Positions 9,740-52,082 of a stretch of DNA of 64,000 bases are shown in pieces. Numbering within the stretch: the stretch's first letter is position 1; each line of letters opens with the position of its first letter. Under the pieces are notes generated by a model. That model searched no databases. It was given only the letters and a program-made list of their open reading frames with translations, and had not been told where the DNA came from. The position numbers and the translations under genes were made by a program. The stretch covers positions 63,798,001 to 63,862,000 of the forward strand of contig OX597814.1 of the NCBI GenBank assembly GCA_951406725.2, written 5' to 3'. The stretch is from Octopus vulgaris (lineage: Eukaryota).

Positions 9740-9745
<6 letters not shown>
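9378..9745 (-). mobile_element. Non-coding HHR-containing element (family B) between (TA)n tracts
   Basis: Homologous along its length to 49001-49415. Contains a canonical hammerhead. Confidence 0.8.
9496..9584 (-). ncRNA. Type I hammerhead ribozyme with extended stem II
   Basis: Minus strand reads ttcctg-CTGAAGA-T-GGCAA...TTGCC-GAAAC-TATGCATA-GTC-caggaa. Stems I and II pair, stem III is palindromic, and the cleavage triplet is GUC. Confidence 0.85.
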
Positions 9746-9781
<36 letters not shown>

Positions 9782-9790
9782 GTATATATA

Positions 9791-10381
9791 TTAGAAATAT
9801 TAAAATAACTAAGTCTCTCTAAAAGAGAACAGCGGCAGCGTTCCCGGAAAATAACAGTTATCGCCATACTAATATGGCATTCTTATAAAAATAAGAAAAA
9901 AGCTGTCCGCTTATTAGCTCCATGAGGCCATCGCCTTAAGTTAGCTATTTGATACACAAACTGTATCCATATAACCTTCGAACAAGGGAGGTCAGTCGCT
10001 CCACACTACTGACCGGCAGCTACAGACGCGTTTCGGGGTATTGCCCCTTTTCAATGCAGCGTAGCCAGCCAGTAGGTGTCGCTTCCGACAATCTCTGTTC
10101 GATGGTTTTATTTACCTAGTTTCGGTGGAATACATCCACTTGTTTTCAATAATAGAAATATTAAAATAACTAAGTCTCTCTAAAAGAGAACAGCGGCAGC
10201 GTTCCCGGAAAATAATAGTTATCGCCATACTAATATGGCATTCTTATAAAAATAAGAAAAAAGCTGTCCGCTTATTAGCTCCATGAGGCCATCGCCTTAA
10301 GTTAGCTATTTGATACATGGAGCTAATAAGCGGACAGCTTTTTTCTTATTTTTATAAGAATGCCATATTAGTATGGCGATA
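9791..10381 (-). mobile_element. Non-coding HHR element (family A): 361-bp monomer, ~165-bp terminal redundancy and ~65-bp 5' inversion, in (TA)n
   Basis: 9792-9956 repeats at 10153-10317. 10316-10381 is an inverted copy of part of that repeat. TA tracts lie on both sides. Confidence 0.85.
10019..10060 (-). ncRNA. Minimal type I hammerhead ribozyme (U3-A8 variant)
   Basis: Minus strand reads gctgca-TTGAAAA-GGGG-caata-CCCC-GAAAC-GC-GTC-tgtagc, with palindromic stem III ACGCGT. Confidence 0.85.
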
Positions 10382-10410
10382 ATATTATTTATATATATAT
10401 TATTATTATT

Positions 10411-10461
<51 letters not shown>

Positions 10462-12151: not shown

Positions 12152-16891
<4,740 letters not shown>

Positions 16892-44542: not shown

Positions 44543-44944
44543 TATATATACTACTAATTATTTGAGGGAATATTATTCCTAACTTACAGGGAAAATTCAA
44601 TTTAGAAATACTAAATCAAATTTCACAAAATATAATATATATATATAAAAATTGGAAAAAAAACACCTTTTATCAATTTAAAATGAACAATTATATTACA
44701 CCATCTAAACAATTACATATAATAGAAATATTAAAAATAAAATAACAATAATATACCAATGACTAAGTAAATTGCAAAATAATAAAAAAGTATATATATA
44801 TATATATATAAGAAAATAGTAAAGTGTGAAAAAACGACAGAAGGCTTAAATGTTAAAAAATATATATATTTGTGTCAAAATGTCTGGAGAATATTGGAAA
44901 ATTTTTTTTCCTTTCCTTAAAATGACATAATTTAAAAATTTTTA

Positions 44945-44984
44945 AAGAAATTACCGGTTTCGCGTGTAGCTTTTCAAATTTCTT
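44945..44984 (-). ncRNA. Minimal hammerhead ribozyme (PLE 3' UTR, inverted copy)
   Basis: Reverse complement of 48760-48799. Confidence 0.75.
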
Positions 44985-45120
44985 GTGACGTTATGTTTAT
45001 ATTGCATGGAATTATCGTTGTTTTTATTTCCAGGAGATTTCTAAATAAGGGGAGGTAGTGAGTGATTTTTTCCGGTGTAGGGGAGATAATCGCTTAAAAA
45101 TTTTTTTTCCCATTTCCTTG

Positions 45121-46641
45121 TTAATTTCTCTGTGTCAGTATGTTCGGATGGTTGAGTCTGGGTTTGTACTTTTCAATGAAGAATGTTTCCTTGTTCAGTC
45201 TCATTTGTGTTGATGATCCGAAAGCACATTGGTAGAATGGGAAGATTAAAAATTGTGGCAGTAGTTGCTTTGCGCATTTCTCAATGTGCTCACTAAAAGG
45301 TATCATTCTATATTCTGGGAATGCAATCTGTTGTCGATGCAGTGTGCATCTGCGCCTGAGTGATAGTCCCGTGGAACCCACGTAGTCTTGGTGGCAGCCC
45401 GAGCATTTAATAACATAAATTATGTTTTCAGAGGCACAAGTAAAGTTAGATTTGATCTTAAATTTCTGTCCCTCTTTAAAGAAGAATTCTGATCCTTCCA
45501 ATAGGTTAGGACATGTTGCACAGTTCGATCTACCACATTTTTTTACTTTTGCATCCGTAATTTTAGAAGACAATTTTGCCTTTGTGAGAATCTTTTTAAG
45601 TGATTTAGGCTGTTTGTAGCTTTTAATGATTTGGTGTATGTTTAGAATTTCCTTTAATTTTGGGTTTTTATGAAGTATTGGTAAATTCTGGGTGATGATG
45701 GTGAAGGCTTCTTTGTTTCTGGGGTTGTATGTAGATATGTAAGGTAGTATTTTCGGGGAAGGTGTGTTGTTGTGTTGAACTTTTCTTAACGTTTCTATGT
45801 TGATTTCTGTTGCACGTCTGATCCCATCCTCTATGAGTTGAGCTGGGTAATGTCTGTCAATTAGGGTGTTTTTGAGTTCTTGCAGTCTAAAGTTCCTGGT
45901 ATTTTGTTCTGACACTATTGTGCATATCCTTCTTGCAAGGTTGAAGGGGATGTTTGTTTTAGTGTGTCTTGGGTGGCATGAATTAAAAAGAAGGTATTGT
46001 TTGGCGTCTGTGGCTTTGTAAAAAATGTCTGTTTCTATTTTAAGGTTAATTTTTTTAATTAGTATATCCAAGAACGGGAGCTCCTTTTGGTTGTATTCCA
46101 TTGTGAACTGTATATTTGGGTTTATGCTGTTCAATAGGTTTTTAAATTTTAGGAGTTTATCTATGTTTTCATTCCAGAGAATGAAACAATCGTCTAGGAA
46201 TCGTTTCCAATTCTCTTTTATGTATTGAGAGAGGGAGTTTCCAAAGATTGATAGAGATTCCTGGTAAATGATTATTTCCATGTATCCCATTGTTAAGTTC
46301 GCAATGACTGGTGCTGCCCTTGTACCCATAGCAATTCCGGATTTTTGACGGTAAAATGTATTGTCAAACATGAAGTGGTTATTGTGTAGGATGAATTCAA
46401 TTGATTTAGTAATGAATTCCTTACTGATCCTTTTTGGTATTTCTTCCGGAAATTGGTCTAACCAGAATTGTATTGCCTCCAGTCCATAATTATGAGGTAT
46501 ACTGGTATACAAGTTGACTACATCAAATGAAACCAGGATTGTTTCTTCCTTGGTTTTTTTTGGAAGGTGGTTTAACATATCTAAGTCATCTCTGATATGG
46601 CTATCGATATGTTTAAGGAAGGGTTTCAAGAGGATGTCCAT
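45121..46641 (-). CDS. PLE RT/GIY-YIG ORF, truncated inverted copy (506 aa)
   Basis: Protein is identical to the C-terminal 506 aa of ORF 46773..48623. Confidence 0.9.
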   Translation of the reverse strand: MDILLKPFLKHIDSHIRDDLDMLNHLPKKTKEETILVSFDVVNLYTSIPHNYGLEAIQFWLDQFPEEIPKRISKEFITKSIEFILHNNHFMFDNTFYRQKSGIAMGTRAAPVIANLTMGYMEIIIYQESLSIFGNSLSQYIKENWKRFLDDCFILWNENIDKLLKFKNLLNSINPNIQFTMEYNQKELPFLDILIKKINLKIETDIFYKATDAKQYLLFNSCHPRHTKTNIPFNLARRICTIVSEQNTRNFRLQELKNTLIDRHYPAQLIEDGIRRATEINIETLRKVQHNNTPSPKILPYISTYNPRNKEAFTIITQNLPILHKNPKLKEILNIHQIIKSYKQPKSLKKILTKAKLSSKITDAKVKKCGRSNCATCPNLLEGSEFFFKEGQKFKIKSNFTCASENIIYVIKCSGCHQDYVGSTGLSLRRRCTLHRQQIAFPEYRMIPFSEHIEKCAKQLLPQFLIFPFYQCAFGSSTQMRLNKETFFIEKYKPRLNHPNILTQRN

Positions 46642-46772
46642 AAGTAGACTTAGTCTGTGTGTTTCACAGGTTGGGCCAGCTACAATGGGTCGTAGTTTTA
46701 GGTCCCCCGGATTAGGTGTGTGTATGTATGTCTTTGGTGATTTTTTAATGGTTTCATTGTCAGTTCCTTTTC

Positions 46773-48623
46773 ATGGGTTATCTTGTAATTTCCTTGCTTG
46801 ATGAAGACCTACATTATGAAAAAATTACCAACTACACCCCACAAAAAATAATGAAAACTCTATCTTCACTAATTAAAACCCATGAAAAGGAACTGACAAC
46901 CAAAGAGATTGATTTCCTAACAAACTTTAAATGCAAACCTAGCCTTTTCTATGGTCTGCCAAAAATTCATAAAAGTCAAATTATAAATGAAACCATTAAA
47001 AAATCACCAAAGACATACATACACACACCTAATCCGGGGGACCTAAAACTACGACCCATTGTAGCTGGCCCAACCTGTGAAACACACAGACTAAGTCTAC
47101 TTATGGACATCCTCTTGAAACCCTTCCTTAAACATATCGATAGCCATATCAGAGATGACTTAGATATGTTAAACCACCTTCCAAAAAAAACCAAGGAAGA
47201 AACAATCCTGGTTTCATTTGATGTAGTCAACTTGTATACCAGTATACCTCATAATTATGGACTGGAGGCAATACAATTCTGGTTAGACCAATTTCCGGAA
47301 GAAATACCAAAAAGGATCAGTAAGGAATTCATTACTAAATCAATTGAATTCATCCTACACAATAACCACTTCATGTTTGACAATACATTTTACCGTCAAA
47401 AATCCGGAATTGCTATGGGTACAAGGGCAGCACCAGTCATTGCGAACTTAACAATGGGATACATGGAAATAATCATTTACCAGGAATCTCTATCAATCTT
47501 TGGAAACTCCCTCTCTCAATACATAAAAGAGAATTGGAAACGATTCCTAGACGATTGTTTCATTCTCTGGAATGAAAACATAGATAAACTCCTAAAATTT
47601 AAAAACCTATTGAACAGCATAAACCCAAATATACAGTTCACAATGGAATACAACCAAAAGGAGCTCCCGTTCTTGGATATACTAATTAAAAAAATTAACC
47701 TTAAAATAGAAACAGACATTTTTTACAAAGCCACAGACGCCAAACAATACCTTCTTTTTAATTCATGCCACCCAAGACACACTAAAACAAACATCCCCTT
47801 CAACCTTGCAAGAAGGATATGCACAATAGTGTCAGAACAAAATACCAGGAACTTTAGACTGCAAGAACTCAAAAACACCCTAATTGACAGACATTACCCA
47901 GCTCAACTCATAGAGGATGGGATCAGACGTGCAACAGAAATCAACATAGAAACTTTAAGAAAAGTTCAACACAACAACACACCTTCCCCGAAAATACTAC
48001 CTTACATATCTACATACAACCCCAGAAACAAAGAAGCCTTCACCATCATCACCCAGAATTTACCAATACTTCATAAAAACCCAAAATTAAAGGAAATTCT
48101 AAACATACACCAAATCATTAAAAGCTACAAACAGCCTAAATCACTTAAAAAGATTCTCACAAAGGCAAAATTGTCTTCTAAAATTACGGATGCAAAAGTA
48201 AAAAAATGTGGTAGATCGAACTGTGCAACATGTCCTAACCTATTGGAAGGATCAGAATTCTTCTTTAAAGAGGGACAGAAATTTAAGATCAAATCTAACT
48301 TTACTTGTGCCTCTGAAAACATAATTTATGTTATTAAATGCTCGGGCTGCCACCAAGACTACGTGGGTTCCACGGGACTATCACTCAGGCGCAGATGCAC
48401 ACTGCATCGACAACAGATTGCATTCCCAGAATATAGAATGATACCTTTTAGTGAGCACATTGAGAAATGCGCAAAGCAACTACTGCCACAATTTTTAATC
48501 TTCCCATTCTACCAATGTGCTTTCGGATCATCAACACAAATGAGACTGAACAAGGAAACATTCTTCATTGAAAAGTACAAACCCAGACTCAACCATCCGA
48601 ACATACTGACACAGAGAAATTAA
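46773..48623 (+). CDS. Penelope-like element polyprotein (RT, Cys-rich linker, GIY-YIG endonuclease), Neptune-type, 5'-truncated
   Basis: Uninterrupted 616 aa with 'LRPIVAG', 'LVSFDVVNLYTSIP', 'QKSGIAMGTRAAP..ANL', 'WKRFLDDCF', 'LPFLDI', the linker 'CGRSNCATC' and 'NIIYVIKC..C...YVGST..L..R...H'. The start ATG comes from the junction inversion. Confidence 0.95.
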   Translation: MGYLVISLLDEDLHYEKITNYTPQKIMKTLSSLIKTHEKELTTKEIDFLTNFKCKPSLFYGLPKIHKSQIINETIKKSPKTYIHTPNPGDLKLRPIVAGPTCETHRLSLLMDILLKPFLKHIDSHIRDDLDMLNHLPKKTKEETILVSFDVVNLYTSIPHNYGLEAIQFWLDQFPEEIPKRISKEFITKSIEFILHNNHFMFDNTFYRQKSGIAMGTRAAPVIANLTMGYMEIIIYQESLSIFGNSLSQYIKENWKRFLDDCFILWNENIDKLLKFKNLLNSINPNIQFTMEYNQKELPFLDILIKKINLKIETDIFYKATDAKQYLLFNSCHPRHTKTNIPFNLARRICTIVSEQNTRNFRLQELKNTLIDRHYPAQLIEDGIRRATEINIETLRKVQHNNTPSPKILPYISTYNPRNKEAFTIITQNLPILHKNPKLKEILNIHQIIKSYKQPKSLKKILTKAKLSSKITDAKVKKCGRSNCATCPNLLEGSEFFFKEGQKFKIKSNFTCASENIIYVIKCSGCHQDYVGSTGLSLRRRCTLHRQQIAFPEYRMIPFSEHIEKCAKQLLPQFLIFPFYQCAFGSSTQMRLNKETFFIEKYKPRLNHPNILTQRN

Positions 48624-48977
48624 CAAGGAAATGGGAAAAAAAATTTTTAAGCGATTATCTCCCCTACACCGGAAAAAATCACTCACTACCTCCCCTTATT
48701 TAGAAATCTCCTGGAAATAAAAACAACGATAATTCCATGCAATATAAACATAACGTCACAAGAAATTTGAAAAGCTACACGCGAAACCGGTAATTTCTTT
48801 AAAAATTTTTAAATTATGTCATTTTAAGGAAAGGAAAAAAAATTTTTCCAATATTCTCCAGACATTTTGACACAAATATATATATTTTTTAACATTTAAG
48901 CCTTCTGTCGTTTTTTCACACTTTACTATTTTCTTATATATTCACCCACGTGCTTTACCAAACAAACTTTCTTATCT
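46780..48977 (+). mobile_element. Penelope-like retroelement (right arm), ending in (TA)n
   Basis: ORF plus ~350-bp 3' UTR carrying a hammerhead. (TA)n follows at ~48978-49000. Confidence 0.95.
48760..48799 (+). ncRNA. Minimal type I hammerhead ribozyme (U3-A8 variant) in PLE 3' UTR
   Basis: aagaaat-TTGAAAA-GC-tacac-GC-GAAAC-CG-GTA-atttctt: 7-bp stem I, palindromic stem III ACCGGT, GUA cleavage triplet. Confidence 0.8.
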
Positions 48978-49000
48978 ATATATATATATATATATATATA

Positions 49001-51349: not shown

Positions 51350-51738
51350 TACGACGGGCTTCTTTCAGTTTCCATCTACCAAATCCACTCACAAGGCATT
51401 GGTCGGCCCGAGGCTATAGTAGAAGACACTTGCCCAAGGTGCCACGCAGTGGGACTGAACCCGGAACCATGTGGTTGGTAAGCAAGCTACTTACCACACA
51501 GCCACTCCTGCGCCTATGGTAAAAGTTTTTATTTTTTCATTTCGTTCCTGTCGGAATTTTATCCCTAATTTTGTGGTTATACAACCTAGCTGCTCTTTCT
51601 AGCGTGTTGAATCCCACGAGTGGATTCCTTATTTACACTGTATTTTATGAGTAATAAATAGTCTTTGGACTAAATTTTTACATCCTAGGCCACTGGAAGT
51701 GACAATTTTTATTAACTTCCATTTCCGTTCGATATGAT

Positions 51739-51741
<3 letters not shown>
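50503..51741 (+). mobile_element. Family B-related HHR element: 5' inverted arm, ~469-bp monomer and ~108-bp terminal redundancy, interrupted by a SINE
   Basis: 50509-50723 is the inverse of 51021-51656 (excluding the SINE). 50732-50839 repeats at 51634-51741. A degenerate HHR lies at 51002-51078. Confidence 0.8.
51085..51515 (-). mobile_element. Full-length tRNA-derived SINE, family D
   Basis: Head 'aggcgcaggagtggctgtgtggtaag...gggttcagtccc' and an (AAAAGAGT)n tail, flanked by an AT duplication. Confidence 0.9.
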
Positions 51742-51791
<50 letters not shown>

Positions 51792-51980
51792 GTTATCGCC
51801 ATACTATGTAAATAAGGAATCCACTCGTGGGATTCAACACGCTAGAAAGAGCAGCTAGGTTGTATAACCACAAAATTAGGGATAAAATTCCGACAGGAAC
51901 GAAATGAAAAAATAAAACTATTATTTTCCAGGAACGCTGCCGTGATCTCTTTTAGAGAGACTTAGTAATTTTAATATTTC

Positions 51981-52082
<102 letters not shown>

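What the first reader, a model, noticed from the sequence alone, without database searches (positions are those of the whole stretch)
9791..10381. 361-nt HHR monomer inserted at more than unit length with a 5' inversion
Seen: a 361-bp period (9792 versus 10153) with ~165 bp nearly identical redundancy, an intact minimal hammerhead mid-unit (10019-10060, minus strand), a 65-bp inverted segment, (TA)n on both sides and no ORF. Inference: greater-than-unit, permuted copies are what reverse transcription around a circular or tandem RNA would give. The inversion mirrors the large PLE. Its UUGAAAA core is the same variant as in the young PLE, hinting at a partner relationship.
Basis: partly seen in the sequence, partly recalled or inferred. 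Interest (0 to 1): 0.75.

Follow-up and report, generated by a model that had tools for sequence, protein, structure and literature searches.

The report
Hammerhead retrozyme with two-ended Penelope footprint
This is one of many hundreds of young copies of a 362-base, protein-free repeat that carries a predicted self-cutting RNA motif and sits in TA repeats as two back-to-back arms ending at two different fixed points, a layout that likely shows a Penelope-type retrotransposon enzyme copying one small, possibly circular, RNA from both ends of a DNA cut.

Summary
In detail: 361-nt period, type I hammerhead at 10060-10019 (minus strand), (TA)n flanks, no ORF. It is not a local duplication: a 32-nt motif of the unit has 2,195 exact genomic matches. 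The reading 'permuted copies plus a 5' inversion' needs correcting. 5' ends vary, but 3' ends sit at two fixed sites, A (unit 362) and B (about 303). The 'inversion' is a second arm with its own 3' end. Of 43 sites on one chromosome, 31 are two-armed, all head-to-head, and all 28 classifiable ones pair A with B. The window's Penelope-like element (PLE) follows the same rule. Arms and units of one insertion differ by 0.5-0.6%, against 1.6% between insertions. Best reading: a non-LTR retrozyme written by a PLE enzyme priming both cut ends on one RNA, probably a circle. Cleavage, circle and the partner's identity are untested. The shared UUGAAAA core is weak partner evidence. Retrozymes, the one-sided PLE tail and the PLE link are in print; the strict A+B rule was not in the papers I read. 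This scan noted the same footprint before, for other families in this genome and in other genomes.

The parts
9745..9791 (.). (TA)n target repeat beside the A end
9792..10317 (-). Arm 1: 1.46 units (unit 198-362, then 1-362), 3' end at fixed site A (9792), 5' truncation at 10317
9792..9850 (-). About 59-nt segment between sites B and A, the equivalent of the PLE 'tail' (second copy about 10153-10211)
10019..10060 (-). Type I hammerhead, U3-A8 core, short palindromic helix III; predicted cut between 10025 and 10024 (after unit 128)
   Evidence: cleavage not tested
9974..10105 (-). Predicted long interrupted stem enclosing the hammerhead, conserved between young and older subfamilies
10316..10390 (+). 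Arm 2: unit 230-305, 3' end at fixed site B (about 10390); overlaps arm 1 by 2 nt at 10316-10317
10391..10461 (.). (TA)n and (TAT)n target repeat beside the B end
51786..51982 (.). Second insertion of the same family: 21-nt B arm and 68-nt A arm joined by a 117-nt inverted copy of nearby flank (51527-51643)
44812..48985 (.). Young two-armed PLE (RT and GIY-YIG-type end, hammerheads at 44945-44984 and 48760-48799), one arm ending at its B site and one at its A site 44 nt further; candidate partner, not shown to be the partner

Best explanation
This is a young copy of a non-coding, hammerhead-bearing 362-nt tandem element whose insertions have two outward-facing arms ending at two fixed sites, likely because a Penelope-like (PLE) enzyme cuts both strands of AT-rich DNA and primes one cDNA from each cut end on the same RNA, probably a circular monomer. 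Shown by sequence: the family, the two fixed 3' ends, the A+B pairing, variable 5' ends, TA targeting, 8-11 nt target duplications where readable, microhomology at the inner joint, and the close likeness of all units within one insertion. Inferred: multimeric transcripts self-cleave through paired hammerheads and the monomer is ligated; a PLE dimer makes a staggered cut about 11 nt apart; one end primes at A and the other at B, 59 nt upstream; both enzymes run the same way round the template, often more than once, and tend to stall at the big stem; host end-joining then links the two cDNA ends. My odds: two-ended priming by a PLE enzyme about 0.85; circular template about 0.6; the window's PLE lineage as partner about 0.4.
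For: End rule: 31 of 43 sites on C1 (every site among the first 100 listed matches) are two-armed and head-to-head; 28 of the 31 have two classifiable ends and all 28 are A+B (p=3.7e-9 against free choice). Other young copies: 34 A+B, 1 A+A, 2 unclear of 37 two-armed. Older subfamily, about 80% identical: 9 A+B, 1 A+A, 3 unclear of 13 two-armed among 22 loci (read by eye). Both A+A cases have an inverted copy of their flank (980 and 118 nt), as a later fold-back would give. The window's PLE has two ends 44 nt apart (14 A, 10 B, 1 running on, of 25 loci) and 4 of 4 two-armed copies are A+B. A purified PLE protein cuts and extends both strands, starts at two internal RNA sites that bound the tail, and is predicted to be a dimer (PMC11167929). 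One template: mismatch 0.53% within arms, 0.59% arm to arm, 1.64% between insertions; 8 of 62 insertions share a rare variant between arms; recurrent alleles agree between arms in 53 of 59 cases; 54 variants are array-wide against 13 partial and 98 single; L204 carries three rare variants in all 5-6 pieces. 163 aligned pieces run through the predicted cut site. Fold z -7.4; 98.2% of cells paired and 6 pairs with changes on both sides across 13 copies.
Against: A few unit-specific variants are shared between arms in register (L201, L005, L037, L195), which a linear multimer or later gene conversion explains better than a monomer circle; the test is inconclusive (5 of 52 in register with one alignment artefact, 2 of 80 within arms; p=0.21 for 4 of 52). 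5' ends show no sharp peak at the cut site: they cluster at unit 130-147 and 158-180, which stalling at the stem explains. The likeness of arms could also come from two RNAs of one source locus. The unit shares no sequence with the window's PLE beyond chance, and none of the unit-bearing loci had that young PLE adjoining. In PMC11167929 the two start sites showed no strand difference in vitro and hammerhead cleavage was not needed for insertion. In the 2026 preprint 8 of 9 tested Xenopus dimers did not cleave in vitro. The covariation set was partly chosen with a hammerhead pattern, which favours intact motifs.
Confidence: 0.6

Rival explanations
1. Same two-ended PLE priming, but on a linear multimeric read-through transcript of a genomic array; no circle is needed and the hammerhead may be idle during copying.
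For: Unit-specific variants shared between arms in register in 4 insertions. Arrays of 5-8 units exist as possible sources (L204, L178, L144). Uncleaved RNA was the dominant substrate for the anole PLE in vitro (PMC11167929).
Against: With 5' truncation, linear copying can only keep or shorten arrays and cannot spread a private variant to every unit, yet 54 variants are array-wide against 13 partial, and rare ones fill whole arrays (L204, L180, L115). In-register sharing is not significant (p=0.21). Stems are kept by compensating changes between subfamilies.
Confidence: 0.28
2. One priming event followed by an inversion of the 5' part (L1-style twin priming or self-priming fold-back), the first reader's '5' inversion'.
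For: Inner junctions show microhomology of 2 nt or more in 43 of 67 cases. Self-priming on an antisense template was proposed for head-to-head PLE ends (PMC3846280, passages). Fold-back does occur here (L012, L254).
Against: The inverted arm ends at a fixed site, B, not at a variable internal point (73 B ends at unit 288-307, 33 of them at 303). The arms overlap in unit coordinates instead of abutting, either arm can be the longer or multimeric one, and B arms also occur alone (3 of 43). Fold-back would give A+A.
Confidence: 0.07
3. A DNA-level repeat (local duplication, satellite or MITE-like element) with a chance hammerhead-like motif.
For: Rfam gave no hammerhead match in the rows shown; ends lie in AT-rich, unstable repeats.
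Against: 2,195 exact matches of a 32-nt motif and 1,369 of the hammerhead pattern, controls 0; dispersed copies about 99% identical on many chromosomes; 5' truncation with fixed 3' ends; strand-specific conserved RNA structure.
Confidence: 0.03

Closest known systems
Metazoan non-LTR retrozymes (Cervera and de la Pena 2020, PMC7229834: passages, sections 14 and 17 read; review PMC7761336: passages; Li, Clavereau and Pollet 2026, bioRxiv 10.64898/2026.07.22.740005: parts 1-3 of 5 read)
   Same: Non-coding tandem units of about 350-390 nt as in mussel, one type I hammerhead per unit, GC 42%, strongly self-paired, thousands of copies, dimers to multimers, PLEs in the same genome.
   Different: Circular RNA and cleavage are shown for coral, mussel and axolotl but untested here. 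Those papers infer the PLE link from co-occurrence and pLTR similarity; the parts I read give no insertion footprint. Here the footprint is explicit, while no sequence link to a PLE pLTR was found.
Endonuclease-bearing Penelope-like element insertions with inverted copy and one-sided tail (PMC8557442 and PMC3846280: passages; PMC11167929: parts 1-2 of 4 read)
   Same: Partial tandem plus inverted 5'-truncated copy, tail on one end only, two reverse-transcription start sites downstream of a hammerhead, AT-rich or (TA)n targets, 8-11 nt target duplications.
   Different: No ORF; tail about 59 nt rather than 30-40; both arms can be multimeric; the one-sided tail is here a near-absolute rule (28 of 28) rather than 'often' or 'optional'.
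Non-autonomous Chlamys-type PLEs such as MRC1 (PMC8557442, one passage)
   Same: Non-autonomous, multicopy head-to-tail insertions of PLE type.
   Different: Those share 3' sequence with autonomous families and their clade lacks canonical hammerheads; this unit has a hammerhead and no detected sequence link to the PLE tested.

Membership tests
Metazoan non-LTR retrozyme | Short non-coding unit (about 170-400 nt, GC under 45-50%) in tandem copies | tested here: met
   362 nt, 151 of 362 G+C, longest ATG ORF 38 aa, arrays up to 8 units
Metazoan non-LTR retrozyme | One type I hammerhead per unit | tested here: met
   conserved pairing across subfamilies; no Rfam match among rows shown
Metazoan non-LTR retrozyme | Dispersed high-copy mobile family without LTR, PBS or PPT layout | tested here: met
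   no terminal direct repeats around a distinct interior; PBS and PPT not searched separately
Metazoan non-LTR retrozyme | Highly self-paired predicted RNA | tested here: met
   z -7.43; circular fold -121.9 kcal/mol, 64% paired
Metazoan non-LTR retrozyme | Self-cleavage by the hammerhead | not testable with these tools
   needs an in vitro dimer assay; only contigs, no raw reads, were served
Metazoan non-LTR retrozyme | Accumulates as a monomeric circular RNA | not testable with these tools
   contigs cannot show circles and genomic multimers mimic the junction; indirect variant tests lean to a monomer template but are not decisive
PLE-mobilised insertion | 5'-truncated partial tandem with an inverted copy, head-to-head | tested here: met
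   31 of 43 C1 sites
PLE-mobilised insertion | Two fixed 3' ends with a tail on one side | tested here: met
   28 of 28 classifiable; spacing about 59 nt, longer than the published 30-40
PLE-mobilised insertion | AT-rich target and short target duplication | tested here: met
   36 of 61 A+B insertions have pure TA on both sides; 8-11 nt duplications readable by eye in 5 of the other 25
PLE-mobilised insertion | Terminal sequence shared with an identified autonomous PLE | tested here: inconclusive
   none with the window's PLE; other PLE families of the genome were not surveyed; one possible chimera with an older relative (L241)
Autonomous PLE | RT plus GIY-YIG ORF | tested here: not met
   no ORF in the unit

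The most novel reading that the evidence does not exclude
PLE enzymes integrate by a fixed asymmetric double priming: a dimer holds both ends of a staggered cut and starts them at two different sites, A and B, of one RNA. On a 362-nt hammerhead circle this becomes a twin rolling circle that writes both arms from a single molecule. That would explain the one-sided PLE tail, head-to-head inversions and retrozyme multimers in one mechanism, and the PLE lineage next door would be the enzyme source.
Probability: 0.4. Interest if true: 0.75.

Novelty: new member of a known kind. Interest (0 to 1): 0.5.

Why it matters
How animal retrozymes return to the genome is stated as open in the papers read: PLEs are named as the likely helpers from co-occurrence and repeat similarity. 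This family gives a large, young, clean set of insertions with the full PLE footprint and a strict rule, one arm from each of two start sites. The rule also holds in an older subfamily and in a coding PLE of the same genome. It turns the PLE tail from a description into a testable prediction, and a 362-nt RNA is a convenient substrate for the existing in vitro PLE system. The element class itself is known.

Tried and rejected
Rfam over the window: only microsatellite-driven microRNA matches, no hammerhead among the 150 rows shown of 163. Sequencing runs: no RNA holder listed on record. Contigs of 4 runs guessed to be RNA cover the whole unit but cannot show strand, ends, level or circles; part of that cover comes from one 5'-truncated copy whose flank matches L193. 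The same runs covered the PLE in 30, 18, 9 and 0 of 30 bins; no conclusion drawn. The empty allele was not examined, so the window copy's target duplication stays hidden in TA. A 70-nt DNA search upstream of B returned nothing because common words are skipped. Partner by homology: unit against the full window-type PLE gave chance hits only. The 18-nt match to site A at 44719-44736 lies inside another repeat family, not the PLE. The sequence in the middle of 51786-51982 is copied local flank, not a shared-tail family. An apparent excess of 5' ends at unit position 1 is an alignment artefact. RNA-editing marks, a lead from note e1-8662707: A>G in 2 of 5 rare array-wide variants, no signal. In-register test of circle against linear multimer: inconclusive. 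Literature searches for a retrozyme insertion footprint or an A+B rule (listings seen) gave nothing beyond the papers cited; most subscription journals are not in the library, PMC5785218 is not held, and no supplements were read, so supplementary figures of PMC7229834, PMC11167929 and the 2026 preprint could bear on novelty. Rows dropped before counts: pieces under 82% identity for end classes (this made L013 one-armed), under 90-93% for variant counts; L170, L022 and L012 left out; the two near-identical insertions in L205 counted once.

Full report
Observation. The window holds a 169-nt direct repeat at period 361 (9788-9956, 10149-10317; 2 mismatches) and a 67-nt perfect inverted segment from 10316, between (TA)n runs. 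Read against a typical copy (L002, 362 nt), the minus strand gives unit 198-362 and then 1-362, and the plus strand gives unit 230-305 at 10316-10390. A type I hammerhead lies at 10060-10019 with a U3-A8 core, 6-bp stem I, 4-bp stem II and short palindromic stem III. U3-A8 is a published variant, and this helix layout is described as the usual metazoan form that needs a second copy to cleave well (PMC4209133, passages). There is no ORF over 38 aa. The unit folds far better than shuffles (z -7.43). Across 13 young and older copies the stems are 98.2% paired, with 6 pairs changed on both sides; most of those copies were picked by a hammerhead pattern, so the core pairs are partly selected for.

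The family. The genome is 2.8 Gb. The label octopus comes from earlier scan notes, not from a call that names the genome. The unit gave 1,307 first-look candidates; the 40 scored held full units about 99% identical, on many chromosomes, often as multimers. A 32-nt motif just upstream of site B has 2,195 exact matches and the hammerhead pattern 1,369, controls 0. On C1 the first 100 motif matches fall at 43 sites in 125 Mb; scaling this suggests roughly a thousand young insertions (inference). An older subfamily about 80% identical has the same unit length and ends.

Two fixed ends. I fetched all 43 C1 sites. 31 are two-armed, all head-to-head with 3' ends outward; 12 are one-armed (8 A, 3 B, 1 at an assembly gap). 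28 of the 31 have two classifiable ends and all 28 pair A (unit 356-362) with B (285-308); the other 3 have B plus an unclassifiable end (p=3.7e-9). Among 47 other young insertions, chosen with queries biased towards A, 37 are two-armed: 34 A+B, 1 A+A, 2 unclear. In the older subfamily 13 of 22 loci are two-armed: 9 A+B, 1 A+A, 3 unclear. Both A+A cases carry an inverted copy of the flank (980 and 118 nt), as a fold-back would leave, though one A+B case (L200) also sits in an inverted flank. B ends cluster at 303 (33 of 73). Either arm can be longer (medians 392 and 317 nt, maxima 1,810 and 1,591). Inner junctions show 2 nt or more of overlap in 43 of 67, 0-1 nt in 10, and extra bases in 14. 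Of 61 A+B insertions, 36 have pure TA on both sides; in 5 of the other 25 a duplication of 8-11 nt is readable by eye. The window's second insertion (51786-51982) is a 21-nt B arm and a 68-nt A arm bridged by a 117-nt inverted copy of nearby DNA, which fits two separately primed cDNAs joined by repair.

The PLE link. The element at 44812-48985 encodes an RT with a Cys-rich linker and a GIY-YIG-like end (motif names recalled, linker as described in PMC8557442). Its copies end at two sites 44 nt apart (14 A, 10 B, 1 running on, of 25 loci), and 4 of 4 two-armed copies are A+B. In both elements the hammerhead lies about 150-175 nt upstream of B. In print: the tail is often on one end only (PMC8557442, PMC3846280; passages), and a purified anole PLE protein cuts and extends both strands, starts at two internal sites that bound the tail, and is predicted to be a dimer (PMC11167929, parts 1-2). 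The footprint therefore points to PLE machinery. Which PLE is open. The unit has no sequence link to the window's PLE. One locus, L241, joins an older-subfamily A arm to the B end of an older relative of that PLE with no TA between. That may be a chimeric cDNA, but two neighbouring insertions plus a deletion explain it as well, and none of the 19 other loci of that older PLE held the unit.

One template, circle or line. Units within an arm differ by 0.53%, arms of one insertion by 0.59%, different insertions by 1.64%. Rare variants are shared by both arms in 8 of 62 insertions, and recurrent alleles agree in 53 of 59 comparisons. At positions covered three or more times, 54 variants are in every piece, 98 in one and 13 in some. 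Array-wide rare variants (5 cases with three or more pieces) need a monomer stage, which a circle supplies. Against this, 4 insertions share a unit-specific variant in register between arms, which a linear multimer or conversion between inverted arms would give; the test lacks power. 5' ends cluster at unit 130-180 (53 of 149 arms, against 13 in 79-129; 29 of 83 long arms, p=1.6e-6 for a window chosen after seeing the data), without a spike at the cut site, and 163 pieces cross that site. Stalling at the 3' strand of the large stem is the simplest cause. Public runs could not test expression, cleavage or circles.

Mechanism. Likely cycle: read-through transcription of an array; cleavage by paired hammerheads; ligation to a 362-nt circle, in which the lone hammerhead would be poorly active; capture by a PLE dimer; a staggered cut in AT-rich DNA; priming at A and at B, each beside a short UAU-rich stretch that could pair with the TA end (seen in the end sequences); copying for 0.1 to 5 turns; joining of the two cDNA ends by microhomology. 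The end rule, target and variant pattern are shown. Cleavage, circle, dimer and partner are inferred.

Comparison and verdict. It meets every sequence-testable feature of a metazoan non-LTR retrozyme and of a PLE-type insertion, and it is not an autonomous PLE. The class and the proposed PLE link are published (PMC7229834; bioRxiv 10.64898/2026.07.22.740005). The strict A+B rule and the shared variants between arms were not in the parts of papers I read or in the listings. Earlier notes of this scan describe the same footprint for 310-495-nt families here and in other genomes; I had formed the two-site reading before seeing them and treat them as leads only. New member of a known kind; interest 0.5.

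Noticed in passing
L141:5325-8937 and L142 (longer copies of the window's PLE family): The PLE has a separate 451-aa first ORF overlapping the RT frame in the -1 phase in both copies, with a run of six T plus A in the overlap that resembles a slippery site (recalled); a contig spans the overlap without a gap. Published canonical PLEs have one ORF. One literature search (listing only) gave nothing clear.
   Followed up: partly
L241:1310-2199 (G000:C1, about 30.483 Mb): Possible chimera: older retrozyme A arm, inverted PLE ORF piece and the B end of an older PLE family in one TA site; 238 nt of its middle is also copied inverted into the left flank.
   Followed up: yes
window 44552-44790: Another high-copy AT-rich family (1,740 first-look candidates) that appears to have two fixed ends and two-armed copies as well; the young PLE inserted at its edge.
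   Followed up: partly
window 51500-51740: A further high-copy repeat (1,884 first-look candidates), 5' end in TA, often with inverted pieces; not classified.
   Followed up: partly
L026 and L157, A ends: Short repeated pieces of the A-end sequence outside the end, as if priming at A had started, aborted and restarted.
   Followed up: no
L193 (G000:C1, about 82.32 Mb): A 5'-truncated copy whose flank junction appears in contigs of all 4 runs guessed to be RNA, possibly inside a host transcript.
   Followed up: no
L141:5340-5471, run X13 contig: A contig joins the start of the PLE ORF to sequence resembling the PLE 3' region, which would give an internally deleted unit of roughly 480 nt; it might relate to the 485-495-nt hammerhead families in earlier notes. 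Speculative.
   Followed up: no
   Followed up: no
window 15905-16567: Fragment with a weak zf-RVT match, probably a decayed LINE.
   Followed up: no
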